A stretch of DNA of 64,000 nt from a virus (lineage: Duplodnaviria > Heunggongvirae > Uroviricota > Caudoviricetes): IMG/VR virus record IMGVR_UViG_2671180724_000008; one strand, given 5' to 3'. Both the position numbers and the translations under genes were made by a program. The notes under the pieces were generated by a model, which saw only the letters and a program-made list of their open reading frames with translations, did no database searches and had not been told where the DNA came from. The stretch's first letter is position 1. Each line of letters starts with the position of its first letter. Shown in pieces: positions 1,557 through 48,330 of the stretch.

Positions 1557-1622
1557 AAAACAATTTGTTTTCTGCCTTTTGTTGATTGAGATAATAAGCC
1601 ACATAAGAAAACAAATTGTTTC
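1557..1622 (+). promoter_or_regulatory. Early promoter with paired inverted operator palindromes (aaaacaatttgttttc at 1557-1572 and gaaaacaaattgtttc at 1607-1622) flanking a gataat -10 element
   Basis: Near-perfect palindromes read directly; the same motif recurs at 4241, 4725, 5633/5681, 6165, 15280/15306, 45383 and 48314. Confidence 0.55.
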
Positions 1623-1634
1623 GGAGTGGTTGAA

Positions 1635-1934
1635 ATGTTGAACATTACCCAAGCCTACCAGGTGGCATTGATCAGTTCATCTCATACATCAGAGGAAGAT
1701 GCTCGCCGATTCATGATCGCAAGCAATGAGCTGGATTGGGTTTCGCAAATTGACGGCGGTTGTATTGTCCACGCCGGGTTACAGGATGATGTCTGGAAAG
1801 ACGACTTGCGTCGATATGGTATATCCGAAGGCGCGATTGCTAACATTCAGAAAGTACTTGATGTAGGCTTTGACTCTGTACATTTTGATTGTGGTGCGCC
1901 GGTCGTTGAAGGGCTTGAGTGCTGGAACTGGTAA
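1635..1934 (+). CDS. Hypothetical early protein
   Basis: ORF with ggag RBS 8 nt upstream of ATG 1635; operator promoter upstream; no recognisable motif. Confidence 0.55.
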   Translation: MLNITQAYQVALISSSHTSEEDARRFMIASNELDWVSQIDGGCIVHAGLQDDVWKDDLRRYGISEGAIANIQKVLDVGFDSVHFDCGAPVVEGLECWNW

Positions 1935-1979
1935 CAGATATTAAAGCACTGGTAGTTTGTTTTTAGGATTATCAAAGAA

Positions 1980-2714
1980 ATGAAAAAGTTGAAAAGTTTA
2001 GAAATCCCTGGGACTGGTTATAAATTCTTTATGGACAACGCGGAGTGTGCACCTAACGCGTTGGAAAAAATACAAAGTCTTATCAACAGCCTTACTGAAG
2101 AAGCGAAAGAACTGAAGAGCGAGGCGACAAAGGACAATACAGCTAAAATCCAATGCTTAAATCTCGTTTCTTATTGTTTATATCAAGTGTCCAAAACACT
2201 GATTAAAGGCAATATCTATTACGACGATGAAGACACCTCGACACCTGAAGAAAAAGATAGCGATGAAGAACTCTATGAAGATATCTCTACTAGTGCGGGT
2301 CACGCTGCCTTCGATGCTATGGGTAAATCGTCAGGCATCAGATCATTTGTTGAACAGAACAATTCGACAATAATGATTGAGTACTGTGAACAAACAAGCT
2401 CCAAGGCCATACATGTTCTTCACGATGTTGCTGCAGGGGTTCGCTGTGAGGCTGAAGCGGTCAGAAAAGATGTATTTGGTGCAGACAGTAATACCGTGAA
2501 AGCGTTCATCAACAGTGCTCTGCTAAATTCTTACTCAAACCTTATCGTCAATGCGGCACTATGCGCAAATTCTGGTGAAGAACACATTGTCATAACCGAA
2601 ACCAAATATGAGCATCAACAGTCACCAACCATAGAAGAGGTAACTGCATTGGCTATCAAACAGGCGAGTGAAATTAGTGATGAAATTCTCTCTCTGCTAA
2701 ACAAAACTAAGTAA
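1980..2714 (+). CDS. Hypothetical protein (low GC, acidic)
   Basis: 244-aa ORF, AT-rich codon usage distinct from neighbours; no recognisable motif. Confidence 0.55.
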   Translation: MKKLKSLEIPGTGYKFFMDNAECAPNALEKIQSLINSLTEEAKELKSEATKDNTAKIQCLNLVSYCLYQVSKTLIKGNIYYDDEDTSTPEEKDSDEELYEDISTSAGHAAFDAMGKSSGIRSFVEQNNSTIMIEYCEQTSSKAIHVLHDVAAGVRCEAEAVRKDVFGADSNTVKAFINSALLNSYSNLIVNAALCANSGEEHIVITETKYEHQQSPTIEEVTALAIKQASEISDEILSLLNKTK

Positions 2715-2819
2715 AACATTGATAATGGCGGTCACAATTTGATTCTTTTCTATAAGAATCCGTTGATCGCCACTACTCCCCTTCCATACCTGCAATCACA
2801 TCCTTAAATATCAATAGGT

Positions 2820-3620
2820 TATAGTTGTTTACACAAACAAGAAAACAACTGAATAACAGATCAACGAAACGTCAACGCTTTCACCCGATTTGGTCTAAAA
2901 AATTGACGTTTTCACACATCACTTCTTATACCCGTAATCCTACGCAGCAGACAGCTCCACAGCGTCCAATTTTCACCACAGACGACTCAACACACTACCA
3001 ACAAAAACACATGCTCAAAATCGCTCCCGTTGCGTTACACAACCATATAAACAACTTATTTTCAGGTATAACAAAACAACTAAATAACACATATGCCATT
3101 ACCCAAAACAACCAACCTCTTTATGGCAGGCTACCGAAAAGACCCACCTCTTCTTCCCAGGCTACCGGACAACCAACCTAACTTTCACAGGCAATCCGAA
3201 AACATTCACACGCGCGATACCCACGACACGCCATTACCCAAACAGCGAAGAAACACCTGAACCACTGAAACCCCAACGAAGTCTGTAACCGCAAGGATTC
3301 TCTCAATCCCAAAAGACACGAAACAGAACAATCACGGGAAACGCCATTACCCAATACACGAATAACTACAAAAGCCCTTCACACACTCAGACAAACAACT
3401 CAAACACAATAACGAAAGCAATCGCCCACCTGCCATTACTCCATATACGGAGAAGAACAATCACCAAAACGACGAGAACACCCCATAGAAGAACCACCGC
3501 AAAACGAACGAAACCACATACACCGACAGAGAAAACAACACACCTAATCCACCAACAGAAATAGTCGCCGTATAGAACGTTCTGGTAGGAGTGAGCATTA
3601 ACGCCTATAGAGAGGTTGAG
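2820..3620. repeat. Strand-asymmetric C+A-rich non-coding stretch with four iteron-like direct repeats GCCATTAC(C/T)C(A)A (3095, 3229, 3342, 3432)
   Basis: Top strand almost devoid of G/T over about 800 bp; repeats read directly; ORFs here are low-complexity compositional artefacts. Confidence 0.6.
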
Positions 3621-3773
3621 ACAGATAAAACACGAAGAAAACACAACATGCATAGCGAAGAAGCCAGGTATGTATAAGTGGGGAGGGAAGGAGGGGGGTC
3701 GCCTCCTTTTTCGTATTTATTCAACTCCTGATTTTATCCCCCGTAACACCCCTGCGGTCAGCCTTCGGTCCAT

Positions 3774-3912
3774 ACAGGGAAAAGGCTGCATCCCGCTACA
3801 GAAACGGCTGGGTTGCCTTCGGGGGACGGCTGGAGGTTTTCAGGGAAACGGTCGAGTTGCCTGTGTGGGTTTCGGGAAAAGGCTCGATGCCGGTTCAGGA
3901 ACGGTGGCGTAC
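3774..3912. repeat. Cluster of five direct repeats with core GGGAAA(A/C)GG (cagggaaaaggctgcatccc, cagaaacggctgggttgcc, cagggaaacggtcgagttgcc, cgggaaaaggctcgatgcc, caggaacggtggcgtacc)
   Basis: Read directly; 19-21 bp units spaced 25-35 bp apart in G-rich non-coding DNA. Confidence 0.6.
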
Positions 3913-4220
3913 CGGTATAGCGTGAGAGAGAGTTGCGGCTGCCCACCTGTAATGTGCGGGAAGAAGAGAGGCGCTCACGTGCAGGCGAACTTACTTCCCG
4001 CTGGATTCCCTCTGAATGCCCAGCTACAGCGTAATTGTGCCAGACAGCCAGCGGGTCACAATCGATTTTAGTAGGTTTTCGGGTAGAGGATTATTCTGCC
4101 CACCAGCCACTTTCGGCCACTAAATCAGAATAATGTAAAAAGTGTACTCGGTACTAAACCTGAAAACTCACTGCCAAAACCACATTCACCGGAATAAAAT
4201 CCTTTTTCGCCTATGTGTTA

Positions 4221-4257
4221 TTACGATAATAACACCAATAAGAAAACACGTTGTTTA
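4221..4257 (+). promoter_or_regulatory. Early promoter (-10 gataat) with operator agaaaacacgttgttta
   Basis: Motif family member immediately upstream of CDS 4269. Confidence 0.5.
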
Positions 4258-4268
4258 AGGATTGCTTT

Positions 4269-4598
4269 ATGTTTGCACATATCGACATCAACCAAATCAA
4301 GAAATTAACTCAAAAAGAGTTTGATCAGTTTTATGAGTTAGAAGGTTGGTCTTCCACTCTGATCAATTCGCGGTGGGTGCTTGAGCTGATGACTCGTGAT
4401 GACGCACCTGCTTTGATGATTTGCGACATGGGTGAAGATGCTGACTTTATGGATATGAGCGAATTTTGTGTGGACACATACAACCGCAGCCAGAAGTACT
4501 ACTTCACATGCGATAGCGAGAATGACGTGATTTCTAAGGTCTATCTTCACCTTGTCCAGCATTGGGACGTTCAGGAGTTTCTTGAAGTATTCGCGTAA
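4269..4598 (+). CDS. Hypothetical early protein
   Basis: ORF; ATG 4269 chosen over the upstream TTG that lies inside the operator. Confidence 0.6.
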   Translation: MFAHIDINQIKKLTQKEFDQFYELEGWSSTLINSRWVLELMTRDDAPALMICDMGEDADFMDMSEFCVDTYNRSQKYYFTCDSENDVISKVYLHLVQHWDVQEFLEVFA

Positions 4599-4706
4599 TC
4601 CCAACCAAAGCCAGCAATGCTGGCTTAACTTCATCTGTAGCCGCAGGGAAGAACCTGCATATCGCTCATGCGCCTGATCAATATGCTTTGTAGCCGTTTT
4701 CTTACT

Positions 4707-4743
4707 GGTATTATTTACGCCATTGAGAAAACAAGTTGTTTAC
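4707..4743 (+). promoter_or_regulatory. Early promoter (-10 tattat) with operator gagaaaacaagttgtttac
   Basis: Motif family member upstream of CDS 4753. Confidence 0.5.
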
Positions 4744-4752
4744 GGAGTTGTG

Positions 4753-5064
4753 ATGAAAAAATCATTGGTTCTTGGTCTGGACAAAGACCAGAAGAGAAAA
4801 GAGAAGCCTGCGCTGGTTGCTCAATTAACTTTGCTGGACATCGTTGCCAATGGAACCTCTATTCGTCTGTTCCGTGAAACAGCGGTGTCTTTCGATAAAA
4901 ACACCTTTACTCGTTATGTAATGAATGTTCGTCGCCAGCGTGGAAAAGGCTGGGTGGCATTTCAAAGAATGTGGCCGGAACATCAGCTCGAACTGGCTTT
5001 GATGGAAGTTAACCGCGTGGCCCAGCAAGAGATTCAGAGAGCATCAGTGATGGCAATAGCCTGA
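4753..5064 (+). CDS. Hypothetical early protein (basic)
   Basis: ORF with acggag RBS 5 nt upstream of ATG 4753. Confidence 0.6.
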   Translation: MKKSLVLGLDKDQKRKEKPALVAQLTLLDIVANGTSIRLFRETAVSFDKNTFTRYVMNVRRQRGKGWVAFQRMWPEHQLELALMEVNRVAQQEIQRASVMAIA

Positions 5065-5099
5065 TAATGTGCAAGTGGTAATTAGTCGACAGTACGACA

Positions 5100-5126
5100 G
5101 CCCCGCCATCCTTACGGGGCTTTTTT
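5100..5126 (+). terminator. Rho-independent terminator
   Basis: gccccg...cggggc hairpin plus tttttt. Confidence 0.65.
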
Positions 5127-5190
5127 GTATTGTAAGTACATACTTACGGCTATAAAATAGAAAAATAACCAAGACACTACGGAGAGTGAA

Positions 5191-5586
5191 ATGACCGTTA
5201 AACGCGAAAAACTGACAGTTGATGTTTACTATGCCTCTGAAACCGCCGAAGGTAAGAATGTGGCAAAAATCACCGTTGTTACGTACAACACCGAAACTGG
5301 TGCCGAAGTACAGGCCAGTACGATCGTGCGTAAAGGTGATGCCTCCGGCGGCGAGTACGCGACTCAATACCAGTCCATTCTCGATGCAACTGACCCGCTG
5401 CTGCTGAAAATCGAGAACTACTTCCGCCAGGTTGATGAAGAGGTGTTTGAAACCATGATGAGTATGGTTAATTCCGTATTCACCTCCAGCCTGAACACCA
5501 GCACCACCTGGATTGGCCAGTATGGTCTGCGCATTACCTCCGGCATTCCTGCTGACACCTTAATCCCTGAAAGCGTATTCGCTTAA
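5191..5586 (+). CDS. Hypothetical protein
   Basis: 131-aa ORF between two terminators; TAAGTA-type palindrome gtaagtacatacttac at 5132-5147 upstream. Confidence 0.6.
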   Translation: MTVKREKLTVDVYYASETAEGKNVAKITVVTYNTETGAEVQASTIVRKGDASGGEYATQYQSILDATDPLLLKIENYFRQVDEEVFETMMSMVNSVFTSSLNTSTTWIGQYGLRITSGIPADTLIPESVFA

Positions 5587-5596
5587 TCCTCTTTAA

Positions 5597-5622
5597 ATGG
5601 CGCGTAAACCGCGCCATTTTCT
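5597..5622 (+). terminator. Rho-independent terminator
   Basis: atggcgcg...cgcgccat hairpin plus T-run. Confidence 0.6.
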
Positions 5623-5632
5623 TATGCCCGAT

Positions 5633-5697
5633 AACAATTTGTTTTCTGCCTTATCTGCACTGCGATAATTACAACAACAAGAAAACAACATGTTTAC
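5633..5697 (+). promoter_or_regulatory. Early promoter with paired operators (aacaatttgttttc 5633-5646; gaaaacaacatgtttac 5681-5697) flanking -10 gataat
   Basis: Same architecture as 1557-1622. Confidence 0.55.
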
Positions 5698-5714
5698 GCA
5701 GTGAGGATATGCTC

Positions 5715-5996
5715 ATGACTGATTTCACCATTACCACCAAAGCACAAAATGTATTCCTCGAATCATGGCTGGACTTGCCGGAAACAGAACAGCAAGAAAT
5801 GGATCATGTGGAATATGACGAGCAGGTAAGCACGCGATTCTTCCACTTTGAGGGATGCGTTTACGACATTGCCGACTTCATGCGAGATGACCGCTTCCCT
5901 GAATGGCACGCAAGCTATCCACTAAACGCCTTTGCCATGCTGATGATCCGTGTGGATGATTCAGGGGATACCATCGACATCGGTCTGCTCCACTGA
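5715..5996 (+). CDS. Hypothetical early protein
   Basis: ORF; gtgagga RBS 7 nt upstream of ATG 5715. Confidence 0.6.
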   Translation: MTDFTITTKAQNVFLESWLDLPETEQQEMDHVEYDEQVSTRFFHFEGCVYDIADFMRDDRFPEWHASYPLNAFAMLMIRVDDSGDTIDIGLLH

Positions 5997-6126
5997 AGAA
6001 TAAGGTCACCAATGCTGGTGGCCTTAAATGACCATCCTGCTTCCCTCAGGCTAAAAACACCAACCTCTTACCTCCAGGCAACCGACAAACCCACCTGTTC
6101 CCGTCCGGCTACCGCAACTTTCCACT

Positions 6127-6180
6127 TTGACGCCTTATTCGTACAACGATAATTAACACAAACAAGAAAACAATTTGTTA
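6127..6180 (+). promoter_or_regulatory. Sigma70-like promoter (ttgacg -35, about 16-17 bp spacer, AT-rich -10) with operator agaaaacaatttgtta
   Basis: Read directly; preceded by CAGGC(T)A...CCG...CCAACC repeats at 6040-6110. Confidence 0.55.
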
Positions 6181-6200
6181 TTTACGATAAGGAATTAATC

Positions 6201-6683
6201 ATGAATTTTATCGCTACTGTAAACGCACCCGCACATGGCAATATCGCTGTAACGTTCTCTGACATTGAAAAACGAGTACTTGGTGCATGGCGCGACAATG
6301 AGACGGTAGAACTGTCAGCACAAGAAAAATGCATTATTGCACGCGACATCATTGGCAATCGTCGTTACTCGCGGGTATTTGAGAAAGCGTATGTGGTAAA
6401 TTCTGGATTCGGAACGTTCGTCTTTCCGGTGCGCTCCGGGCGATTCTGCCAGTCCAAGCTGATTGAGTTCGCTACGCAGATTTCTTTCTGGATTAAAACT
6501 CAATCGTCGTTCAAATTTTCCGACGATGAAGCAGTATCGCAGGGGATGCGGATCGCCAACAATGCGATTAAATGCAAAAACATTACGTATACCGCTGGCG
6601 TTGACACATGGAAACTGTTTTGCGCTAACTTTATGCTGAATGTATACGCAAGCAACCGCATCCACATCCTTGATGGCGTGTAA
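6201..6683 (+). CDS. Hypothetical protein
   Basis: 160-aa ORF; no recognisable motif. Confidence 0.6.
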   Translation: MNFIATVNAPAHGNIAVTFSDIEKRVLGAWRDNETVELSAQEKCIIARDIIGNRRYSRVFEKAYVVNSGFGTFVFPVRSGRFCQSKLIEFATQISFWIKTQSSFKFSDDEAVSQGMRIANNAIKCKNITYTAGVDTWKLFCANFMLNVYASNRIHILDGV

Positions 6684-6691
6684 CTGAGAAG

Positions 6692-6715
6692 AGGGCCAGA
6701 AACGGCCCTTTATCT
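6692..6715 (+). terminator. Rho-independent terminator
   Basis: agggcc...ggccct hairpin plus tttatct. Confidence 0.5.
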
Positions 6716-6731
6716 ATAGCCACCAGCTGCC

Positions 6732-6819
6732 GCAGGGAAATTTTCAGAAACGGCGAGGAAAGCATTCATGAGCCGACGGGAAACGGCCAGGATTTTTTCG
6801 GGAAACGGCTGCATTCGCC
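6732..6819. repeat. Second cluster of GGGAAA(A/C)GG repeats (cagggaaattttcagaaacggcgagg, cgggaaacggccagg, cgggaaacggctgcattcgcc)
   Basis: Same core as the 3774-3912 cluster, in non-coding DNA. Confidence 0.55.
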
Positions 6820-7269
6820 TTTATGTAGAAAAAACATCGGGAAGCTGGTGGAATCCAACCAGCGGTTGTCGGACAGGTGAGCGGGGAAAATTATGATGAC
6901 TTTCGTCGCCTGAGACATCCAGATTTCTTTCGTAGCATAATCACATACGTGATTAAGTGGTGTGATTATGTGAAAAATCACGCGCACATAATACGCGAGC
7001 GGATACGGAACAAAACAAAATGCCGATCCGCGCCGACAAATAAACGCGGATCATAAAGCAAGACTAAAAGCCAATGATTAACCATACTCTATAGCGCAAT
7101 ATAACGCGTTTTAAGCGCGTTAATGTGTTAAGTAATGGGTATGTACTGGTAAGGATATAAAAGCGCGTCTATGGCGTTATTTTGGCGCTTATTTTTATGT
7201 TGTTGGAGTGAGTTAAAGACAATAAAAAACGCGCTAATGATGGCGCGTTATGGTGGGAGTATTGGAAAC

Positions 7270-9047: not shown

Positions 9048-9650
9048 TCAAAAAGGCAAAATTCGTTCAACCCAATCGAACAAAACAACTATTTTTCTAC
9101 CGTTCTCGACACGTAGTGTAACCTGACAAGCATCTGCGCCTGCTGACACCCCCTCAATTTCACGGCCATCCGCCATGTACACCCTTATAGATTTGTTTGC
9201 TTTGTAGGCTTGGTTGCAAATTGCAAAAAAATCGCGGCGTGATGGCCGATTATCGACATAATCAGGGTGAACTGTTAGTCGACCTTTGAAATCGTGAGCG
9301 ATACTGTCAACCACACCTGATTCAATTGTACTAATGCGTTCAAGTGGGAGCCTTATACGATTTTCTTTGTCAAAAGGGGCTGGGCAAAGGTCAACTTTGT
9401 TACGAGATGGCATGAGGCCATAAACGTACATGCAAAACGCCTGGCCATCTTCGAGAGTGACCCTTACAGGAATTTGTTCTCTGCGCCAGAACATCAGTAG
9501 TTTTTCAACGTTAGTGTAATCTCGCGGCCAGAGTTCAGCTTGGATACCGTAGGTAATATCTTTGGTTGTCATGTCATCACAGAGTTGTTGGCAGAATGTC
9601 GATGTCACCAGAATTGCTGGTGAACACCCTGAACGCTTTTGTGTCTCCAT
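9048..9650 (-). CDS. Hypothetical protein (start uncertain; alternative ATG at 9572)
   Basis: 200-aa ORF; overlaps the upstream lipoprotein ORF by 74 nt if the 9650 start is used. Confidence 0.5.
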   Translation of the reverse strand: METQKRSGCSPAILVTSTFCQQLCDDMTTKDITYGIQAELWPRDYTNVEKLLMFWRREQIPVRVTLEDGQAFCMYVYGLMPSRNKVDLCPAPFDKENRIRLPLERISTIESGVVDSIAHDFKGRLTVHPDYVDNRPSRRDFFAICNQAYKANKSIRVYMADGREIEGVSAGADACQVTLRVENGRKIVVLFDWVERILPF

Positions 9651-10067: not shown

Positions 10068-10346
10068 TTATTTTAATCTGCTTAATAGCGTTTCGAGATC
10101 TTCCTTTGTCATATTAGAGTTCTCATAGATACGCATGATTTTCTCACGAGTCTTAGCGGAAGCCCCGACAGAAGATATAACCTTGTCAAAGTCGGCCATT
10201 GTCAATTGTTCCAGAATGGTATTTATGACTTCAGCCTTAGACATTTTGATATTTTTTTCTTTTAGTTTCACTTGAAACTTTCCAAGTTTGTCATTGGCCT
10301 TATCAGACAATGCTACCTGACAATAAGTTGTTTTCTTTTCGCTCAT
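10068..10346 (-). CDS. Hypothetical small protein
   Basis: 92-aa Lys-rich ORF directly upstream (in transcription order) of the 8736-9999 genes. Confidence 0.5.
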   Translation of the reverse strand: MSEKKTTYCQVALSDKANDKLGKFQVKLKEKNIKMSKAEVINTILEQLTMADFDKVISSVGASAKTREKIMRIYENSNMTKEDLETLLSRLK

Positions 10347-11972: not shown

Positions 11973-11990
11973 GTGGATTGTAGCAATAAA

Positions 11991-12671
11991 ATGGATGTAA
12001 AAATCACGATTTTGCAGGTTGATGTTGCCAACCTTCGCCCGAATACCTGGAACACCAATTCGGTTGGTGCGCAGAATTTTGAAAAACTGAAAGGTTCTAT
12101 CGAAAAATTGGGCTTTTTTAAGCCAATTTTGGCTCGTGAACTTGAAGATGGATTTTTTGAAATCCTCGGCGGCGAACATCGCTGGCGTGCTGCTATTGAG
12201 CAAGGAATTTCAACGGTTCCGGTGCTTTCTGTGGGCAAAATTAGCGATGTCGTAGCTAAACAGATGTCACTGGTGGACAACGAGCGATACGGTGAAGACG
12301 ACCAAATCGCATTGCAACGCTTCATTGAAGAAATTCAGTCAGAACTTGACTATCAACTGTCTGAAATCGCCCCGTATGACGACGAAATCTCGATGGTTTT
12401 AGCAAAAGAGGCGGCAATCGACCTTGAAGCACTGGAGGCGTTGTCTCGTGGTAGTGATGAGCCTGTCGATACCGACAAACGAGAGAAAACCGAACGTGTG
12501 GGTGCGGAACATCAGACCATGCGCTTCAAAGTAACTTTCGATGCGTCAGATCGTGTTGCAGAAACCATAAAAAACATCATCAAAGAGCAGGCTATTAACA
12601 CCGGTAATGAAATGGAGAACGCTGGTGAGGCTCTGGTGTGGCTGGTCGACTACTACAAGGAGCGTATGTAA
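11991..12671 (+). CDS. ParB-like nuclease domain protein 1
   Basis: ParB N-terminal domain signature ILGGEHRWRAA; acidic C-terminus; alternative GTG start at 11973. Confidence 0.7.
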   Translation: MDVKITILQVDVANLRPNTWNTNSVGAQNFEKLKGSIEKLGFFKPILARELEDGFFEILGGEHRWRAAIEQGISTVPVLSVGKISDVVAKQMSLVDNERYGEDDQIALQRFIEEIQSELDYQLSEIAPYDDEISMVLAKEAAIDLEALEALSRGSDEPVDTDKREKTERVGAEHQTMRFKVTFDASDRVAETIKNIIKEQAINTGNEMENAGEALVWLVDYYKERM

Positions 12672-13339
12672 TGACCAAAAAGTTTGAAATCGTATATCGC
12701 GACCCGGCAGATCTTATTCCCTATGAGATGAATGCCAAAAAGCATGATGAACAGCAGATCCGAGATCTAGCCGCAGCCATTAAAAAGCGCGGATTTGACC
12801 AGCCAATTACGGTCGATAAGAACGACGTAATTATTACTGGCCACGGCCGCCGTGAGGCTGCAATTTTTGCTGGACTTGAGCGCGTACCGGTTATTGTTCG
12901 CGATGATCTCAGTGATGACGAGGTTCGTGCGAAGCGCCTTGAAGATAACCGACTTGCCAGCATTGATTACGATGCAATTAAGCTACAGAAAGAGCTTGAG
13001 TCGCTTGTTCTGGACGATATCGAGGTTTTCGGCTTTGAAGAGCGTGAGTTGAATGTTCTCGTTGGCAGTATGACAGAAGAAATGGACACCGACTCGCTAG
13101 TTATCGATCTTGGCGAAGAAACTAAACGACAGAAGGATGAACACACCGAGATCAGTCGTGAAGTTGCAGCGGAAGAAGTACGTGTTGTCGACGTATTGGG
13201 CTTTAAAACGCTCCCTGCTGGCTCTGCCATTGTTGTTGGTGATTTGCTTGCCCACATGGAAGAAATGACGGGAGAAAGCGGGGTAGACGCATTTGTGGCA
13301 TATGCGGAGAAGATCTCTTCCGGGGAGATGGCTGCATGA
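12671..13339 (+). CDS. ParB-like nuclease domain protein 2
   Basis: ITGHGRREAA motif; aaggag RBS; ATG overlaps upstream stop (taATG). Confidence 0.7.
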   Translation: MTKKFEIVYRDPADLIPYEMNAKKHDEQQIRDLAAAIKKRGFDQPITVDKNDVIITGHGRREAAIFAGLERVPVIVRDDLSDDEVRAKRLEDNRLASIDYDAIKLQKELESLVLDDIEVFGFEERELNVLVGSMTEEMDTDSLVIDLGEETKRQKDEHTEISREVAAEEVRVVDVLGFKTLPAGSAIVVGDLLAHMEEMTGESGVDAFVAYAEKISSGEMAA

Positions 13340-14001
13340 GCAAATACATCATCAACGTATCGTTTCAGACACGCGTAAATAAAACCACGCGCACGTTGGA
13401 AATCGCTGAGTCGTTCGGGCTTGGCCTGGACGAAAAAGAGTGGACGCTTTACGACAATCTGGAGCTGGAAGTGAAGCAGGGCGATGTGGTGTACATCACC
13501 GGCCAATCCGGTTCCGGCAAATCCGTTGTGCTGCGCGAGTTGCAACGACAGATGAAGGATGAAGGGCTGTCTGTAGCCTCCATCGATGATTTTACCTTCG
13601 ATAATGAGGTTAACGTCATCGATCAGTTGGGCAAAACGACCAGTGATGCGCTTGGGTTGTTATCTATGGCTGGTCTGAACGATGCATATCTGTTTGTTCG
13701 CAAGCCTTCTGAAATGTCAGACGGCCAGAAATATCGTCTCAAGATTGCCAAACTGATTGAGTCAGGCGCTAAAGTGTGGGCTGCTGACGAGTTCGGCGCT
13801 GTTCTCGACCGTGTAACCGCTCAGGTTGTGGCGTCTAACCTCCAGCGTGCCGCTCGAAAGGTTGGTGCGACGGTAATGGTGGCGACGACTCACGAAGACC
13901 TGAAGAACGCGCTGCGCCCGGATATGCAGATCACCAAGCACTACAAAGAACGCGTGAAGGTGGAATATCACAATGGTAGTCACGATGAGGTCCATTCATG
14001 A
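13336..14001 (+). CDS. Small ABC-type/P-loop ATPase
   Basis: Walker A GQSGSGKS, signature-like SDGQKYRLKIA, Walker B VWAADEFG; ATGA overlap with upstream gene. Confidence 0.65.
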   Translation: MSKYIINVSFQTRVNKTTRTLEIAESFGLGLDEKEWTLYDNLELEVKQGDVVYITGQSGSGKSVVLRELQRQMKDEGLSVASIDDFTFDNEVNVIDQLGKTTSDALGLLSMAGLNDAYLFVRKPSEMSDGQKYRLKIAKLIESGAKVWAADEFGAVLDRVTAQVVASNLQRAARKVGATVMVATTHEDLKNALRPDMQITKHYKERVKVEYHNGSHDEVHS

Positions 14002-14888
14002 CGGACATCATCATTAAACGCTACCGCCCTGAAGAGTTTCCGCGTCATCTGGACTTTCTGGAGCGAATGACTGTTACAAAGGGAACTGTAGAGGACTGGC
14101 ACGCTCTTAAGTCGCTTCACTACAAAACAGACGGCAAACCTTTCGCGCCAACTTACTATCGCTGCGAACTTGATGACCGTCTGGTGGGCGTCGTGGTTAT
14201 GGCTTACCCGAAACTACTGTTGGCACCTCGCCACCGCATGTTTCCTAAGTTGAAACCAACCACTAATACCACCGTGGCTAACCAGTACTGGGGTCGGTAC
14301 GTGAATAACAACTTTGCGGTGATCAGTCGCTCAGTTGTGGATACTCAGTATCGTGGCGTAGGCGTCTCTTATCGAATGATTAACCTGGTTAGCAGGATGC
14401 ATGACCGGCCAATCATTGAGATCCAGTCCTCGATGAGCAAATACAATCCCTTCGCCATGAAAGCAGGGTTTAAGTTCATCCGCCCTGAGCGACCGAAGAG
14501 CTATGAAAGTGCACTGCGTGTATTCCAGCGCCATTTCCGTTCCGACCCGGGTGATAACGAGGCGATCGTCAAAGAGTTGTTCGCAATGAGCGAGTCTCGT
14601 CGTCGCCGTGCACTGCGTGATCTGGTGGCGGACTACCACAAGAACAGTTCCCTGGCAAAAGCTGGGCGGAATCGTGGCACGACGATTCAGGACATTGCCG
14701 ACAGTCTGGTGGACGAGGCCAGCATTGTGAAGTTGCTCAAGGACATTCACAACCTGAGCTTTACGTCTCCGTTGTATGGGGTGTATCGAAACCCTGACTT
14801 TGGTCGTCGACTGCCTGACACGCTGCCACTGCTGGCATTCGACAAACAACCTTTGGATAAACCGTTAGAAATTGCTTTACCGGCATAA
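13998..14888 (+). CDS. GNAT-like (acetyltransferase-fold) protein with basic C-terminal extension
   Basis: YRGVGVSYRMINLV resembles the GNAT acetyl-CoA-binding motif; ATGA overlap with upstream ATPase. Confidence 0.45.
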   Translation: MTDIIIKRYRPEEFPRHLDFLERMTVTKGTVEDWHALKSLHYKTDGKPFAPTYYRCELDDRLVGVVVMAYPKLLLAPRHRMFPKLKPTTNTTVANQYWGRYVNNNFAVISRSVVDTQYRGVGVSYRMINLVSRMHDRPIIEIQSSMSKYNPFAMKAGFKFIRPERPKSYESALRVFQRHFRSDPGDNEAIVKELFAMSESRRRRALRDLVADYHKNSSLAKAGRNRGTTIQDIADSLVDEASIVKLLKDIHNLSFTSPLYGVYRNPDFGRRLPDTLPLLAFDKQPLDKPLEIALPA

Positions 14889-14897: not shown

Positions 14898-15164
14898 ATG
14901 ACGTTAACCGATAAACAAAAGGACATCATCAAAACGCTCAATCTCGGTTATGAGCGAGGTCATCTACTTGATCTGGACGAATTGCTTGAAGTTTTGCCGT
15001 ACAAGACAACCAAGCAAAGTATCCAGTTCTCAATTCGCGCTCTGATAAAAAAGGGGCTTGTGGAGAAAGGGCATACGCGCCAACGCAGTGACAATCGCTA
15101 TCACCGCCGAACTCTTGGGTTAACCACTTTAGGTCGAGCCAAAGCGAAGTTACTGGTGATGTAA
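14898..15164 (+). CDS. Small winged-helix DNA-binding protein
   Basis: 88 aa; ALIKKGLVEK-type wHTH segment; basic C-terminus. Confidence 0.5.
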   Translation: MTLTDKQKDIIKTLNLGYERGHLLDLDELLEVLPYKTTKQSIQFSIRALIKKGLVEKGHTRQRSDNRYHRRTLGLTTLGRAKAKLLVM

Positions 15165-15279: not shown

Positions 15280-15322
15280 AGAAAACAAGTTGGTTAGAAA
15301 ATGCAGTAAACAAGTTGTTTTA
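15280..15322 (+). promoter_or_regulatory. Two operator motifs (agaaaacaagttggtta; gtaaacaagttgtttta) upstream of the terminase operon
   Basis: Members of the GAAAACAA..TTGTTT family. Confidence 0.5.
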
Positions 15323-15360
15323 GAGCGCATGGACGCGCTCTGTGTGTTTTAGAGGGATCT

Positions 15361-24239: not shown

Positions 24240-24313
24240 GTTAATCGGTAAGTATATACTTACTATTAGCGCAATGAATGCGTAGAATTAACGGAAAAAG
24301 GAGTTTTCCATCA

Positions 24314-37631: not shown

Positions 37632-37723
37632 TGTAGAAAAAAATATTTACATCGGTAAAAATAAGTATGTACTTACTTAATGGCGGGCAAGGATAGCCCG
37701 CCAAATCAAGGAGCATATTCAAC

Positions 37724-43556: not shown

Positions 43557-43557
43557 T

Positions 43558-45382: not shown

Positions 45383-45399
45383 AAGAAAACAAGTTGTTT
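45383..45399 (+). promoter_or_regulatory. Operator motif agaaaacaagttgtttc upstream of parA-like gene
   Basis: Member of the early operator family. Confidence 0.5.
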
Positions 45400-45434
45400 C
45401 AGACAATAATAATAGACGCAAAGGGAACTCTCCA

Positions 45435-46103
45435 ATGACCAAGATCTTTGTGGTTGGCGGCACAAAGGGCGGGCCTGGCAAATCCACTGTTGCCCAGCAA
45501 ATTGCCGTTTGCCTGAAAGTCAAAAAGAAGAAGAAGGTTTATATCACTGATATAGATATTCAGCGCACGACAACAAGCTGGTGTGAAGACCGTCGACAGA
45601 ACGAAGACCTTGAGCTGATTCCTTTTGCCTACGTTCAGGATGACATCATTAAGCACCTAAAATCGCTTCAGGGTAGAGCTGAGTTTGTAGTGGTAGATGC
45701 TGGTGGCTTTGACTCCGAAATTCAGCGACAAGCGATGCTGATGGCCGACGTTATCATTATCCCGCTGCGTCCTAAGCGTCGTGATTTGAAATCTCTGCGT
45801 GACATCGATCCTATTATCGACAATGTTCGTAATGTAAACGATAAAGTGAAGGTCCGCGCGGTCATGAACCAGTGCCCGGCTTTGCCATCACAAGTGTCTC
45901 GCATTCTGGCGGCTAAAGAGATTGTCGAGACGTTTGGCATCGAGTCTGCGCCAGTCAATCTATATAACCGCAACGTCTACGATGATGCGGAAGAGTCTGG
46001 TCGTTCTATCTTCGAAATGACCGGTAGCGAGCGCGACAAAAAGGCTGAAGCCGAGTTTGAAGAATTTGTAGATTATCTGTTGAGTCTGGAGGAAGAAGAA
46101 TAA
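45435..46103 (+). CDS. ParA/MinD-family partition ATPase
   Basis: Deviant Walker A GGTKGGPGKST; small ParA size typical of type Ib partition systems. Confidence 0.8.
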   Translation: MTKIFVVGGTKGGPGKSTVAQQIAVCLKVKKKKKVYITDIDIQRTTTSWCEDRRQNEDLELIPFAYVQDDIIKHLKSLQGRAEFVVVDAGGFDSEIQRQAMLMADVIIIPLRPKRRDLKSLRDIDPIIDNVRNVNDKVKVRAVMNQCPALPSQVSRILAAKEIVETFGIESAPVNLYNRNVYDDAEESGRSIFEMTGSERDKKAEAEFEEFVDYLLSLEEEE

Positions 46104-46462
46104 TGTCCATGAAAATGGGTGACCTAGCAAAGCGCAAAGAGCCTGATGCACCGGCTAAGAACACAACTCCTTTGCGCCAACCAGTCAGACCACAGGGACG
46201 CCCGACTCGTGGCAAAGAGAAAATTAAGAGCCGCACGATGTCACTGGAGGACGAATACTTCGAACTGCTGGAGATGATGAAGTTCATCCCTCGTTTCGAG
46301 AAATTCACCCGTTCAGACGTGATTCGCGCAGCCATTTTCCATCTGGCAGAGAAGTCACCGCAGGAAATCGAGGACATCGTGAAACTTAACGAGGCGATCA
46401 CAGCTGCCGATGTCACGATGCGTACCGATGAAATCAAACGAGAGTTGATGAAAAAAGGTTAA
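46103..46462 (+). CDS. Ribbon-helix-helix centromere-binding partner (ParG-like)
   Basis: Basic disordered N-terminus, C-terminal RHH-like segment; ATGT overlap with parA-like stop. Confidence 0.55.
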   Translation: MSMKMGDLAKRKEPDAPAKNTTPLRQPVRPQGRPTRGKEKIKSRTMSLEDEYFELLEMMKFIPRFEKFTRSDVIRAAIFHLAEKSPQEIEDIVKLNEAITAADVTMRTDEIKRELMKKG

Positions 46463-46466
46463 AAAT

Positions 46467-46500
46467 CATGCATTGGCGCAATGTACGCGCCAATGCATGA
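46467..46500. repeat. Perfect 14-bp inverted repeat tcatgcattggcgc / gcgccaatgcatga (7-nt loop) between convergent genes
   Basis: Read directly; A-run upstream makes it a plausible terminator for the minus-strand gene. Confidence 0.7.
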
Positions 46501-46514
46501 CTACAGTGTCAGCT

Positions 46515-47282
46515 TTATGCCGCGCTAACACTATGTTCAGTCCTAACCACCCCAACCTTCACAAAAGGGCTACCGTAGCTTGGTGGCTTCTTGATTAATT
46601 TGCCTACATACAGTTTTCTAATATGCTCATCGGCTATTCTGCCAACAAATTCATAACGTTTTGTGTCGGGGCCAAGAGCTATATCCCTTGTAAAGTACTG
46701 CTGAGAACCGGCTTTGACCCAGCATTCAATCCGATAAACTTCCATTATCAGCCCACCATATGTAGCGTAGGCATATTTGAGATTCTCGTCTCTTGGAACC
46801 TTTGCCCATACGCCACGCGTAGCTTCATATAATGCCAGAGCGGACATTCCTGACTTGTAGGTGCTGTTTAGCAGGAAGGCAAGACCGGCGTGCTCAGGAG
46901 CAATTTCAGTTTCCTCTTGCAGCACTAAGTGATGGTAGGCGTCCAGTGATATTCTGCCCATCATGGAACCACTTCCTCGTACCTTATTCGTAAGCTCTCC
47001 GACCCCCATAAGGTCGATGCATGTCGCCTCAACAAGTTTGGCTGTGGTTTCATCCATACCATGACGAAGTATATCTATGCCTAATTTTTTATTAGCCAAA
47101 AGTTCTTTGATCCGCATGGATTTGGGAGAGTCATCGGGATACTTGATGTGATCGAGACAACGAGTCGATTTGCCTTTTCCTATGTAAAACGGTCTTTTCA
47201 TCTTGTCTTCTGTATCATAGAGACAGTAAACATAGTATTTAGCCTTATCCAATGATCTCGCGTATACCGATAAATCGTCCAT
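46515..47282 (-). CDS. GIY-YIG nuclease family protein
   Basis: N-terminal YYVYCLYD...FYIGKGKSTR matches the GIY-YIG motif; only minus-strand gene within ~35 kb of plus-strand genes. Confidence 0.65.
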   Translation of the reverse strand: MDDLSVYARSLDKAKYYVYCLYDTEDKMKRPFYIGKGKSTRCLDHIKYPDDSPKSMRIKELLANKKLGIDILRHGMDETTAKLVEATCIDLMGVGELTNKVRGSGSMMGRISLDAYHHLVLQEETEIAPEHAGLAFLLNSTYKSGMSALALYEATRGVWAKVPRDENLKYAYATYGGLIMEVYRIECWVKAGSQQYFTRDIALGPDTKRYEFVGRIADEHIRKLYVGKLIKKPPSYGSPFVKVGVVRTEHSVSAA

Positions 47283-47393
47283 TATTGCATCTCTTAGCTA
47301 CTGACTAATGCGTTCTATTTTACACATAAGTTTTTAATCAATTTAACAGGCTCAAAGTGTAGAGCTTCTGGGCGTCTAAGACGACAAGTTATG

Positions 47394-47448
47394 CCTGCTT
47401 CCGTATATATAAATAATAAGTAACTTATTAAATATATACAGAAGCAGG
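47394..47448. repeat. 55-bp composite palindrome, copy 2
   Basis: cctgcttccgtatatataaataataagtaacttattaaatatatacagaagcagg followed by tcttttaaaag; matches copy 1 at 15189-15243. Confidence 0.85.
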
Positions 47449-47555
47449 TCTTTTAAAAGACACCACCAGAACAACTCCCTTCCGTTTCCACTTCCAAAAA
47501 CTGCCACCAGTCGCTATCATCCGCCCATTGTGATAAGTAAGTAACTACCTACCAG

Positions 47556-48305
47556 GTGAGCCACATGAGCCAAATCTTTTTCGACACCATCGACAACGAC
47601 CAGTACGACTTCATGACAGAGTGGAATACCGCTGTTATGGATAAGTGGGTTGCTGAAAACATTGGTTTGTCGCGTTGCAAAGACGAGGCTGAACTCTTCG
47701 ATACGAAGTGGTTTGATTACCGCGACATGCATCCTCTTATGGCCACCTGTCTGTTTACAGAGGCATACAAACGTCAGTACTCAAATATCATGCTGACGCA
47801 CGGTCGAGAACACTTTGAAACAGCTCCGTTCACCACCGGGTTAAAACGCCTGCCTTATCAGGAGTTGTCGACTGCCAATAAAACGTCGCTATGGAAAGCA
47901 CGCCAGTTTGCTGACCGCTATTGCTGCTCATACGACTACTTTATTTCCACCGTTCTTTCCGCAGCTGCACGACGACTGTGGGACAAGCTGCCGCGTCCGC
48001 AGCATTTGTGGCAGCCAGAACTGATTGAGATATTCGAAGATAAATTAGCCAGACGCGCAACAACCCGTCTGGATGACTCTCTGGTTAGCTTTAAGCATAT
48101 GGGAGACATGCAGTTCAACCCGATTCAGGAAAGCTATTTTGAGTGGATTCTGGAGCGTTTACGCGCCATCCCCCGCAGCAAGCGCATACGCGCAATTTTC
48201 TCCGCTATCTGGCTAATGGAAATCGTTCCAGAGCGCCTTATTTCCGCCCACTTTCCAGAAGAACTGGAAGAAGCACGGCGGTTTATTGATCCCCTATCTA
48301 ATTAA
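47556..48305 (+). CDS. Hypothetical protein
   Basis: 249-aa ORF at the head of the replication module. Confidence 0.5.
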   Translation: MSHMSQIFFDTIDNDQYDFMTEWNTAVMDKWVAENIGLSRCKDEAELFDTKWFDYRDMHPLMATCLFTEAYKRQYSNIMLTHGREHFETAPFTTGLKRLPYQELSTANKTSLWKARQFADRYCCSYDYFISTVLSAAARRLWDKLPRPQHLWQPELIEIFEDKLARRATTRLDDSLVSFKHMGDMQFNPIQESYFEWILERLRAIPRSKRIRAIFSAIWLMEIVPERLISAHFPEELEEARRFIDPLSN

Positions 48306-48313
48306 CTAATACT

Positions 48314-48330
48314 AGAAAACAATTTGTTTA
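48314..48330 (+). promoter_or_regulatory. Operator motif agaaaacaatttgttta upstream of helicase gene
   Basis: Member of the early operator family. Confidence 0.5.

What the first reader, a model, noticed from the sequence alone, without database searches (positions are those of the whole stretch)
1557..48330. Conserved operator palindrome GAAAACAA-NN-TTGTTTTC at every early promoter, often as an inverted pair flanking the -10
At least nine sites carry a 16-18 bp near-perfect palindrome placed at or just downstream of a sigma70-like -10 (gataat or tattat): 1557 and 1607, 4241, 4725, 5633 and 5681, 6165, 15280 and 15306, 45383, 48314, with half-sites at 49741 and 60403. At 1557/1607 and 5633/5681 two inverted copies flank the promoter, an arrangement expected for cooperative repression or looping. 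This implies one DNA-binding protein controls the early genes, the terminase operon, parA and the helicase operon. I do not recognise the site as a LexA, CI or other known operator.
Basis: seen in the sequence. Interest (0 to 1): 0.6.

Follow-up and report, generated by a model that had tools for sequence, protein, structure and literature searches.

The report
Shared operator palindrome of phage-plasmid promoters
A 17-base palindrome (GAAAACAA-N-TTGTTTTC) sits a fixed distance downstream of the -10 box of about a dozen promoters in this SSU5/pHCM2-type phage-plasmid and is kept unchanged in relatives from many enterobacterial genera, so it most likely marks a genome-wide repressor regulon that I did not find described in the papers I could search and whose binding protein is still unidentified.

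Summary
GAAAACAA-NN-TTGTTTTC gives no hits. GAAAACAA-N-TTGTTTTC gives 15 hits against 0.75 expected.

The window is an E. coli SSU5/pHCM2-like phage-plasmid. Fourteen sites score well above everything else. In a complete relative, all 18 sites are intergenic.

Sites lie 10-13 nt after a -10-like hexamer, at about +5 to +24, but 9-38 nt from the start codon. Two promoters carry a second, inverted copy exactly 51 bp upstream. The terS leader has two copies 25 bp apart. These spacings and the sites recur in SSU5, Cyrano, pHCM2-like, pMT1, Nissabacter and Enterobacter elements. As RNA the motif is unstructured. Genes behind it are silent in the Cyrano lysogen, except parA.

The best reading is a dispersed DNA operator of one repressor. 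The binder is unresolved.
- parA's partner protein is absent from pMT1, which keeps 7 sites.
- A core gene expressed in the lysogen encodes an FljA-family "repressor", which I model as a tandem Hfq/Sm fold. It is an intriguing candidate but unproven.

I found no published description.

The parts
1556..1572 (.). Motif copy TAAAACAATTTGTTTTC. Upstream member of a 51-bp pair; spans about -46..-30 of the promoter of gene 1635-1934.
1590..1595 (+). -10 box GATAAT with extended TGn (TGAGATAAT), lying between the paired motif copies.
   Evidence: sequence pattern only; no TSS data
1607..1623 (.). Motif copy GAAAACAAATTGTTTCG, about +6..+22, 11 nt before the start codon of gene 1635-1934 (DUF5983).
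3047..3063 (.). Motif copy ATAAACAACTTATTTTC in a poorly annotated A-rich stretch. The orthologous site in SSU5 scores higher (23 bits).
4242..4258 (.). Motif copy GAAAACACGTTGTTTAA, 11 nt after GATAAT (4225-4230), 10 nt before the ATG of gene 4269-4598.
4727..4743 (.). Best-scoring motif copy, GAAAACAAGTTGTTTAC, 12 nt after the extended -10 TGGTATTAT (4709-4714), 9 nt before the ATG of gene 4753-5064.
5630..5646 (.). Motif copy GATAACAATTTGTTTTC. Upstream member of the second 51-bp pair; lies just after the terminator-like hairpin 5599-5615.
5681..5697 (.). Motif copy GAAAACAACATGTTTAC, 11 nt after the extended -10 TGCGATAAT (5664-5669), upstream of gene 5709-5996.
6166..6182 (.). Motif copy GAAAACAATTTGTTATT, 12 nt after GATAAT (6148-6153), 18 nt before the ATG of gene 6201-6683.
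15281..15322 (.). Two motif copies 25 bp apart (15281-15297 and 15306-15322) in the leader of the terS/late operon. The 25-bp spacing is conserved in SSU5, Cyrano, pHCM2-like, pMT1, and the E. coli chromosomal SSU5-like element (L015).
15322..15350 (+). GC-rich hairpin AGAGCGC-N6-GCGCTCT followed by GTGTGTTTT. A terminator-like element between the paired motif copies and the terS start (15361).
   Evidence: structure prediction only
45385..45401 (.). Motif copy GAAAACAAGTTGTTTCA, 13 nt after TAGGCT, in the parA promoter (TTTACA-17-TAGGCT), 33 nt before the parA ATG.
48315..48331 (.). Motif copy GAAAACAATTTGTTTAA in the 43-bp gap before the DnaB-type helicase gene (48349-49689).
   Evidence: conserved in SSU5 and a Klebsiella plasmid despite diverged flanks
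60400..60416 (.). Motif copy GTAAATAATTTGTTTTC, 10 nt after TACATT, 17 nt before the ATG of the CobT-like gene (60434-62542), which heads the operon running towards dnaE.
10319..10335 (.). Weak motif-like match inside the N-terminal codons of gene 10068-10346 (-). Weaker in Cyrano and absent in SSU5, so probably not functional.
9048..9572 (-). Candidate binder 1: FljA-family protein (PF03614, E=2.5e-84), modelled as two tandem Sm/Hfq-like domains. A core gene of the supercluster, transcribed in the Cyrano lysogen.
10068..10346 (-). Candidate binder 2: 92-aa protein of unknown function, highly expressed in the lysogen, in the same operon after UvsW. The ribbon-helix-helix impression was not confirmed.
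14898..15164 (+). Candidate binder 3: 88-aa winged-helix-like protein just upstream of the terS leader. Conserved, but silent in the lysogen.
46103..46462 (+). Candidate binder 4: 119-aa protein after the small ParA, possibly a ParG/omega-like centromere-binding protein. Absent from pMT1, which keeps the motif.
59485..59871 (-). Rejected as the binder.

Best explanation
The 17-bp palindrome GAAAACAA-N-TTGTTTTC is a double-stranded DNA operator used by one repressor at about 14 places in the window and about 18-21 in a whole element. It occurs in SSU5/pHCM2/pMT1-type phage-plasmids.

Each promoter-proximal copy starts 10-13 nt after a sigma-70-type -10 box, which is often an extended -10 (TGnGATAAT) with a poor -35. 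The copy therefore covers roughly +5 to +24. A bound protein there would block open-complex formation or promoter escape.

At two early promoters a second, inverted copy is centred at about -38, exactly 51 bp from the one at about +14. That is five helical turns, so both lie on the same face of the DNA. Two bound units could touch and clamp the -10 region. In the terS leader two copies 25 bp apart precede a terminator-like hairpin.

The regulon covers the small early genes, the late/terminase operon, parA, the helicase-primase genes, the CobT-like/dnaE genes and, outside the window, nrdB and others.

What is shown: the motif, its excess over chance, its geometry and its conservation. What is inferred: that a protein binds it, that it represses, and that it acts on DNA. 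The binder is not identified. My ranking is the FljA-family tandem-Sm protein at about 0.3, a host factor at about 0.15-0.2, p92 at about 0.15, p88 at about 0.1, p119 at under 0.1, and some other element-encoded protein for the rest.
For: - Excess over chance: 15 matches vs 0.75 expected and 13 vs 0.45. PWM scores are bimodal, with 14 sites above 17 bits and the next best at 12.6.
- Placement: 18 of 18 sites in the complete relative CP088852.1 are intergenic, P about 7e-15.
- Promoter coupling: the gap from the -10-like hexamer to the motif is 10-13 nt in the window and 8-13 nt at 11 of 13 promoter-proximal sites in CP088852.1, with conserved AAT columns. The gap from the motif to the start codon is 9-38 nt.
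- Pair spacing is exactly 51 or 25 bp in all eight genomes or loci examined. Upstream copies lie at -46..-30, after a terminator-like hairpin, where the promoter's own transcript cannot contain them.
- Both halves are conserved as sequence, not merely as complementary bases. The RNA version folds at only -0.4 to -2.1 kcal/mol. No Rfam family matches.
- Sites are kept at orthologous promoters in Cyrano and SSU5, in pHCM2-like, Nissabacter and E. kobei elements and an E. coli chromosomal element, in a Klebsiella plasmid, in pMT1 and in a distant IMG/VR contig, while the flanks diverge.
- Lysogen RNA-seq of Cyrano (PMC9928086 S1 Table): genes directly behind sites are at background (5.7-12.9 against a median of 9.8). 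parA has a single site and a good -35, and its operon reads 50-89.
Against: - No binding or transcription-start data exist. The -10 boxes and +1 positions are inferred from sequence only, and the generic promoter scan did not call these promoters because their -35 boxes are weak.
- Low mRNA in the lysogen could also come from lack of an activator or from mRNA decay.
- The sites are polar. The half nearest the -10 is nearly always perfect (4 mismatches in total) while the far half is degenerate (17 mismatches). A simple symmetric homodimer does not predict that, although the adjacent Shine-Dalgarno sequence might explain it.
- No conserved, lysogen-expressed protein with a confirmed classical DNA-binding fold was found. 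The only conserved 'repressor'-family protein has an RNA-binding fold.
- The exact spacing could partly reflect common descent of duplicated promoter cassettes.
Confidence: 0.65

Rival explanations
1. The motif works in the mRNA, not the DNA. The element's FljA-family protein (9048-9572, tandem Hfq/Sm fold) binds the leader RNA (GAAAACAA-N-UUGUUU...) near the 5' end of about 20 transcripts. It then represses translation and/or triggers decay, as Salmonella FljA does on the fliC leader, or it modifies elongation or termination in a nut-like manner.
For: - Every promoter-proximal copy lies in the predicted 5' leader, between the -10 and the Shine-Dalgarno sequence.
- FljA-type regulators are reported to block fliC mRNA translation (PMC2652032).
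- The gene is core to the supercluster and is transcribed in the lysogen.
- The transcribed-strand 5' half GAAAACAA is the better conserved half.
- The terS leader has two copies followed by a terminator-like hairpin.
Against: - The upstream copies at -46..-30 are conserved with exact spacing, yet the promoter's own transcript would not contain them.
- The distance to the start codon varies from 9 to 38 nt, so the ribosome-binding site cannot be occluded at parA, terS or nrdB.
- The RNA is essentially unstructured, and single-stranded RNA recognition gives no reason for a sequence palindrome.
- The Salmonella and E. coli fliC leaders score about 0 bits against the motif.
- A Moellerella relative has a divergent FljA homologue but no motif. 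A distant contig keeps the motif with FljA at only 33% identity. There is therefore no clean co-variation.
Confidence: 0.15
2. The palindrome is a DNA operator, but the protein that binds it is a conserved host transcription factor of Enterobacteriaceae/Yersiniaceae and is not encoded by the element.
For: - The motif is invariant in elements from Escherichia, Salmonella, Klebsiella, Enterobacter, Nissabacter and Yersinia, although every element-encoded candidate has diverged strongly (p92 to 35-62%, FljA-like to 33-83%).
- It is lost in the one relative from a different family, Moellerella (Morganellaceae), although the promoter scaffold is kept there.
- pMT1 has lost many element genes but keeps 7 sites.
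Against: - I know of no host factor with this consensus. The nearest I recall, the KdgR box GAAACA-N-TGTTTC, has different half-site spacing. That comparison is from memory and was not tested.
- No host genome was scanned for the motif.
- The evidence rests on a single contrast, Moellerella.
- Dispersed operators in plasmid prophages are normally served by an element-encoded repressor (P1 C1 and RK2 KorA/KorB; established knowledge).
Confidence: 0.15
3. The palindrome is not a separate binding site. It is part of a duplicated promoter cassette, such as an initially transcribed sequence or leader that spread with paralogous early-gene promoters, and it is conserved by descent or for RNA polymerase itself.
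For: The early-region promoters share more than the palindrome...TTTnnnnGCCTTaT-N10-GATAAT.... Moellerella keeps that scaffold without the palindrome, which shows that the two parts are separable.
Against: - The motif also sits at unrelated promoters with quite different -10 and upstream sequences: parA, dnaB, the CobT-like gene, nrdB and terS.
- It occurs upstream of the -10 as an inverted copy.
- It stays intact where the flanks have diverged.
- RNA polymerase has no need for twofold symmetry there.
Confidence: 0.05

Closest known systems
Phage-plasmid P1: C1 immunity repressor with many dispersed operators
   Same: Both are plasmid prophages in which one operator sequence is scattered over many promoters around the genome, so that one protein keeps replication, late and accessory operons quiet. 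Some operators are paired.
   Different: As I recall them, P1 operators are asymmetric 17-mers (ATTGCTCTAATAAATTT), whereas this site is a palindrome with a different sequence. No C1 homologue was noticed in the annotations, but I did not search for one directly.
IncP plasmid RK2: KorA/KorB global regulon
   Same: Short palindromes, including a 13-bp one with a central base for KorB, recur at most backbone promoters and give coordinated repression of replication, partition and transfer. The element here also encodes two ParB_N-domain proteins.
   Different: The sequence differs. The two ParB-like genes are at background expression in the Cyrano lysogen (5.0 and 9.5). KorB sites lie upstream of or far from promoters, not at +5..+24.
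Lambda-type CI/Cro operators
   Same: A 17-bp pseudo-palindrome with a central base pair overlaps the promoter, and pairs bind cooperatively on the same face of the helix.
   Different: Lambdoid operators cluster at the repressor's own divergent promoters. Here they are dispersed, none lies at the XRE gene's promoter, and the XRE gene is missing from SSU5.
pSM19035 omega and TP228 ParG (ribbon-helix-helix centromere-binding proteins that also repress)
   Same: A small protein is encoded after a small ParA. In pSM19035 that protein is both the centromere binder and the global repressor of several promoters. The parA promoter here carries one motif copy and is moderately expressed, as an autoregulated operon would be.
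   Different: The ribbon-helix-helix fold of p119 was not confirmed. Omega and ParG sites are arrays of 4-7-bp repeats, not one 17-bp palindrome. pMT1 has lost parA-p119 but keeps the motif.
Salmonella FljA acting on the fliC leader
   Same: The window encodes a clear member of the same protein family (PF03614). The FljA target, like this motif, lies between the promoter and the Shine-Dalgarno sequence. As I recall, it is a region of dyad symmetry.
   Different: FljA is reported to act on the mRNA. The fliC leaders of Salmonella and E. coli share at most the 8-nt core CAAGTTGT and score about 0 bits. Here there are about 20 targets, and some copies lie upstream of the promoter.

Membership tests
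Lambda-type CI/Cro (XRE HTH) immunity region | Operators of about 17 bp with approximate twofold symmetry that overlap promoters | tested here: met
   17-bp palindrome with a central base, starting 10-13 nt after the -10
Lambda-type CI/Cro (XRE HTH) immunity region | Operators clustered in the divergent promoter region of the repressor gene itself | tested here: not met
   No motif scoring >=8 bits in 59872-60122. That region holds different inverted repeats, TTACAACC/GGTTGTAA and AACCTTTG/CAAAGGTT.
Lambda-type CI/Cro (XRE HTH) immunity region | The repressor gene travels with its operators | tested here: not met
   The XRE protein, its Cro-like neighbour and the integrase have no tblastn hit in the complete SSU5 genome, which has 21 sites
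P1 C1-type dispersed operators | One operator sequence at many promoters around a plasmid-prophage genome | tested here: met
   14 sites in the window; 18 in CP088852.1, 18 in Cyrano and 21 in SSU5
P1 C1-type dispersed operators | Asymmetric C1 operator consensus and a C1 homologue | not tested
   The consensus recalled from memory differs from this palindrome. No C1 sequence was available to search with, and no annotation or 23-28 names a C1-like protein.
FljA / fliC-leader system (PF03614) | A protein of the family is encoded | tested here: met
   window 9048-9650(-): PF03614 E=2.5e-84 over the full profile; phrog_1444
FljA / fliC-leader system (PF03614) | Target element lies between the promoter and the ribosome-binding site | tested here: met
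   Promoter-proximal copies lie between the -10 and the Shine-Dalgarno sequence. Two copies, however, lie upstream of the -10.
FljA / fliC-leader system (PF03614) | Target resembles the fliC leader | tested here: not met
   Best PWM scores are -0.2 bits for the Salmonella leader (sequence from PMC3410353) and 0.2 and -2.1 bits for two E. coli leaders
FljA / fliC-leader system (PF03614) | The protein binds the leader as RNA | not testable with these tools
   The model shows a tandem Sm/Hfq fold, which is compatible with RNA binding. The motif RNA is unstructured.
KorB/ParB-type global repressor | A ParB_N-domain DNA-binding protein is encoded | tested here: met
   Two adjacent ParB_N (PF02195) genes in all relatives; window 11973-13339
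KorB/ParB-type global repressor | The repressor is expressed while the element is carried as a plasmid | tested here: not met
   CYRAN_119 and CYRAN_120 read 5.0 and 9.5 against a background median of 9.8 in the lysogen
Omega/ParG-type RHH centromere-binding repressor | A small protein with a ribbon-helix-helix fold encoded after a small (type Ib) ParA | tested here: inconclusive
   The gene order is met (ParA 222 aa, then p119). For the fold there is only a weak hit to an RHH family (aCcr1, E=2.3e-4, below cutoff), and hhalign against RHH repressors gives probability 0.6%.
Omega/ParG-type RHH centromere-binding repressor | The binder co-occurs with its sites | tested here: not met
   pMT1 has no parA or p119 (tblastn) but keeps 7 sites, including the 25-bp and 51-bp pairs. 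The caveat is that pMT1 is evolutionarily young.
Known structured RNA families (Rfam 15) | Match to a curated covariance model | tested here: not met
   Only three tRNAs in the window at gathering score. There are no hits at E<=1 in 1400-7000.

The most novel reading that the evidence does not exclude
The binder is the FljA-family protein. In that case a protein built of two tandem Hfq/Sm-like domains would recognise this polar pseudo-palindrome as a pseudo-symmetric unit, on DNA, on the leader RNA, or on both. It would be the master switch that keeps about 20 operons of SSU5/pHCM2/pMT1-type phage-plasmids silent. Salmonella's flagellar phase-variation repressor FljA would then be a domesticated relative of a phage-plasmid immunity protein.
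Probability: 0.2. Interest if true: 0.8.

Novelty: new member of a known kind. Interest (0 to 1): 0.5.

Why it matters
SSU5/pHCM2/pMT1-type phage-plasmids are very common in clinical Enterobacteriaceae. In the plasmid collection, 730 records match the window's first 12 kb at the DNA level and 797 hold a p119 homologue. The family includes plasmids of S. Typhi and Y. pestis, and phage-plasmids as a class often carry resistance genes (abstract of PMC9600943, listed).

I found no description of how they control lysogeny.

A single invariant operator at 18-21 promoters has three uses.
- It defines the regulon.
- It predicts that these elements share one immunity specificity across genera.
- It gives a direct experimental handle: a 17-mer bait to fish out the master regulator, and a way to de-repress or silence the whole element.

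Tried and rejected
2. XRE protein as binder: rejected, because it is absent from SSU5 and has different repeats at its own promoter.
3. RNA hairpin: rejected, with dG of -0.4 to -2.1 kcal/mol. Rfam gives nothing.
4. fliC leader as a related target: only an 8-nt core is shared, and the PWM score is about 0 bits.
5. SSU5 as a natural FljA mutant: rejected. The short gene call is an annotation choice and the ORF is intact.
6. 'Moellerella lacks FljA and lacks the motif': I first inferred this from tblastn and then withdrew it. Pfam finds a very divergent FljA homologue at the syntenic place, and its ORF extends upstream.
7. p119 as an omega-like global repressor: weakened by pMT1 and by the lack of fold support. 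No repeat array or centromere was found around parA.
8. p92 as a ribbon-helix-helix repressor: the AF2 model is poor (pLDDT 51) and hhalign gives probability 2%. The residues that would face DNA vary among genomes with the same motif. I ran no further search on that model.
9. Counting residues kept in motif-bearing genomes but lost in motif-less Moellerella did not separate the candidates: FljA 39%, p92 27%, p216 52%.
10. Scanning IMG/VR for the motif: every locus with three or more sites was SSU5-like. Four loci with just two sites had no SSU5-like protein hit and were not examined further.
11. HicB-like antitoxin as binder: it fits the presence/absence pattern, but there is no motif at its own promoter.
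12. A preprint on phage-plasmid heteroresistance (10.64898/2026.08.19.745698) that may discuss promoters of such elements could not be opened.

Full report
**What the window is.** The first 12 kb and the last 20 kb match E. coli phage-plasmids of the SSU5/pHCM2 type at 95-98% identity. The matches include phage Cyrano OV696614.1, CMS-2020a and many plasmids of about 107-111 kb such as CP088852.1. Salmonella phage SSU5 matches at about 80%. The window therefore covers about 60% of an element of roughly 108 kb. I fetched the complete relatives CP088852.1, Cyrano and SSU5 with their annotation.

**Checking the observation.** The consensus as written, GAAAACAA-NN-TTGTTTTC, has no match even with three mismatches. 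Reading the named coordinates shows a single central base. GAAAACAA-N-TTGTTTTC has 15 matches at <=3 mismatches against 0.75 expected, and no shuffle reaches that. The 13-bp core AAACAA-N-TTGTTT at <=1 mismatch has 13 matches against 0.45 expected.

A weight matrix built from the sites gives a bimodal result: 14 sites above 17 bits and nothing else above 12.6. The matrix is circular as evidence, so the statistics rest.

The '60403 half-site' is a full site at 60400-60416. The '49741 half-site' is not a site. In the complete relative, 18 of 18 sites lie wholly in intergenic DNA, which is 16% of the genome by an incomplete gene table (P about 7e-15).

**Anatomy.** Promoter-proximal copies begin 10-13 nt after a -10-like hexamer: GATAAT four times, plus TATTAT, TACATT, TCTAAT, CTAATT and TAGGCT. 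Three of the five early-region boxes are extended -10 boxes (TGnGATAAT or TGnTATTAT) with poor -35 hexamers. That is why the generic promoter scan did not call them.

With a start site about 7 nt after the -10, the copies cover about +5 to +24. The gap to the start codon, in contrast, ranges from 9 to 38 nt. The element is therefore tied to the promoter and not to the ribosome-binding site.

At 1556/1607 and 5630/5681 a second copy lies upstream at -46..-30. The two centres, at about -38 and about +14, are exactly 51 bp apart. In the terS leader two copies are 25 bp apart and are followed by a GC-rich hairpin plus GTGTGTTTT. Across eight genomes or loci, every close pair is 51 or 25 bp apart.

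The sites are polar. The half facing the -10 is almost always a perfect GAAAACAA, with 4 mismatches in total over the proximal sites. The far half is looser, with 17 mismatches.

**Conservation.** The same sites occur at the orthologous promoters of Cyrano and SSU5: the terS pair, parA, dnaB, the CobT-like gene, nrdB and the early genes. The flanks differ, for example at dnaB. The sites are also present in the following:
- a pHCM2-like S. enterica plasmid contig
- a Nissabacter-type metagenomic contig
- an Enterobacter kobei contig
- an integrated copy in an E. coli chromosome
- a Klebsiella plasmid with a divergent partition module
- Y. pestis pMT1
- a distant IMG/VR contig whose UvsW is only 74% identical

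Outside the window the relative has further sites before nrdB, a tciA-like gene and others.

A syntenic plasmid of Moellerella wisconsensis (Morganellaceae) has lost the palindrome, although its early promoters keep the upstream scaffold and the -10 box.

**DNA or RNA?** As RNA the motif folds at only -0.4 to -2.1 kcal/mol, and nothing in Rfam matches. Both halves are conserved as sequence. The upstream copies lie where the promoter's own transcript cannot include them; one of them lies right after a terminator-like hairpin. The fixed 51-bp phasing puts paired copies on one face of the helix. All of this points to recognition of double-stranded DNA.

The published lysogen transcriptome of Cyrano (PMC9928086, S1 Table) fits repression. 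Genes directly behind sites read 5.7-12.9 normalised counts against a prophage median of 9.8: terS 7.1, CobT-like 7.8, nrdB 12.9, early genes 5.7-12.8. The helicase reads 21. The parA operon, which has a single site and a good -35, reads 50-89. This is correlative, because silence could have other causes.

**Who binds it?**

*XRE protein (59485-59871).* It is expressed in the lysogen, but it is absent from the complete SSU5 genome together with its Cro-like neighbour and the integrase. Its own promoter region carries other inverted repeats and no motif. I reject it.

*FljA-like protein (9048-9572, minus strand).* This gene was unexpected. It is a full-length member of PF03614, the 'repressor of phase-1 flagellin' FljA (E=2.5e-84). 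It is a core gene of the whole supercluster (79 clusters, 52-98% identity). It lies in the UvsW operon, which is transcribed in the lysogen. FljA-type proteins are reported to block translation of fliC mRNA (PMC2652032).

This raised the rival idea that the motif is an RNA operator. The geometry above argues against it, and the fliC leaders of Salmonella (sequence from PMC3410353) and E. coli score about 0 bits. A tandem-domain, pseudo-symmetric protein would, however, explain the polarity of the sites neatly. I therefore keep it as the leading, unproven candidate.

*p119 (46103-46462).* It follows a small ParA and looked ParG/omega-like. Its central segment is invariant even in Moellerella. 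The fold is unsupported, and pMT1 has lost parA-p119 but keeps seven sites.

*p92 (10068-10346).* It is highly expressed in the lysogen and looked like a ribbon-helix-helix protein. The model is poor (pLDDT 51), and hhalign gives 2%. Its would-be DNA-facing residues differ among genomes with the same motif.

*p88, p71, p216 and the two ParB-like proteins.* All are at background in the lysogen.

Co-variation tests did not separate the candidates. A conserved host factor would explain both the invariance of the motif across genera and its loss in Morganellaceae. I know of no matching host consensus and could not scan host genomes.

**Comparison with known systems.** Functionally this looks like the dispersed-operator regulons of plasmid prophages and plasmids: P1 C1, RK2 KorA/KorB and pSM19035 omega. 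It also resembles lambda-type 17-bp operators with cooperative pairs. It fails the membership tests I could run for the lambda-type immunity region, the FljA/fliC target, a KorB-type repressor and an omega-type repressor (see the table). I found no paper describing this motif or the regulatory circuit of SSU5-type elements. One possibly relevant preprint could not be opened. Subscription papers on these elements, such as the D6/SSU5 supercluster comparison, are not in the library.

**Verdict.** It is a new member of a familiar kind of system, in a clinically widespread and little-studied element family. The more exciting reading, with about 0.2 probability, is that an Hfq-fold FljA-family protein is the master regulator.

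Noticed in passing
window 5133-5146, 24249-24262, 37662-37675, 54490-54503, 62561-62574 (perfect copies); also 11959, 18754, 30750, 47538 and others: A second, different dispersed palindrome, TAAGTA-NN-TACTTA, often extended to ...TACTTACTTAT. It has 25 matches at <=2 mismatches against 1.8 expected. It lies in intergenic gaps of the late operon, the replication genes and the UvsW/ParB divergent region. It is conserved in SSU5 and also in the Moellerella plasmid that has lost the first motif. It may be a phage-specific promoter or the operator of another regulator.
   Followed up: partly
window 9048-9572 (-): The FljA-family protein (PF03614) is predicted with good confidence to be two tandem Sm/Hfq-like domains with no helix-turn-helix. 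I found no paper noting this fold for FljA. It would fit the reported mRNA-binding action of Salmonella FljA.
   Followed up: yes
window 15322-15350: The leader of the terS/late operon contains a GC-rich hairpin followed by GTGTGTTTT, which is terminator-like and lies between the promoter/operators and terS. This suggests late genes may need antitermination. The left half of the first motif copy can also pair with the right half of the second in the RNA.
   Followed up: partly
window 46103-46462: The gene after the small ParA is annotated in Cyrano as a 'RelE/ParE putative toxin'. Its position, its basic N-terminal tail and its extreme conservation (>=90% identity in about 736 plasmids) look more like a ParG/omega-type centromere-binding protein. 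No repeat array that could be a centromere was found nearby.
   Followed up: partly
window 58387-60335: The integrase, XRE repressor and Cro-like gene form a module that is absent from SSU5 but present in Cyrano, pMT1 and Moellerella. It has its own inverted repeats, TTACAACC/GGTTGTAA and AACCTTTG/CAAAGGTT, in the divergent promoter region. It is up-regulated inside macrophages in the Cyrano data.
   Followed up: partly
window about 2715-4240: A stretch of about 1.5 kb with strong A-over-T skew (AT skew 0.24) and few or no annotated genes in the RefSeq-style record. It contains a conserved motif copy at 3047, which is a 25-bp pair in SSU5 and in the Nissabacter-type contig.
   Followed up: no
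window 56454-57788 (-): A low-GC island (36% against about 46%) holds a 444-aa ORF between the tRNA cluster and the integrase. Cyrano has a different gene here (CYRAN_43), which is by far its most highly expressed gene in the lysogen at about 720-fold over background. This looks like a variable cargo or moron slot.
   Followed up: no
window 55257-55500: Three tRNA genes in a row. They are about 90-93% identical to the tRNA cluster of P1 and D6-type phages.
   Followed up: no
L017+L019+L020 (Moellerella wisconsensis plasmid NZ_CP093251.1): This plasmid is a syntenic SSU5-like element from Morganellaceae. It has lost the AAACAA-N-TTGTTT palindrome at all orthologous promoters and has no enriched replacement palindrome of the 6-N(0-3)-6 type. 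It keeps the promoter scaffold and divergent copies of every candidate regulator. It is a useful natural contrast for experiments.
   Followed up: yes
window 12638-14888 and CP088852.1 73188-74740: The ABC-ATPase-like gene and the 296-aa gene that follow the two ParB-like genes are the most conserved proteins of the element. They are 98.6% identical to SSU5, higher than the capsid and terminase proteins, and 76-78% identical even to Moellerella. Their function is unknown.
   Followed up: no
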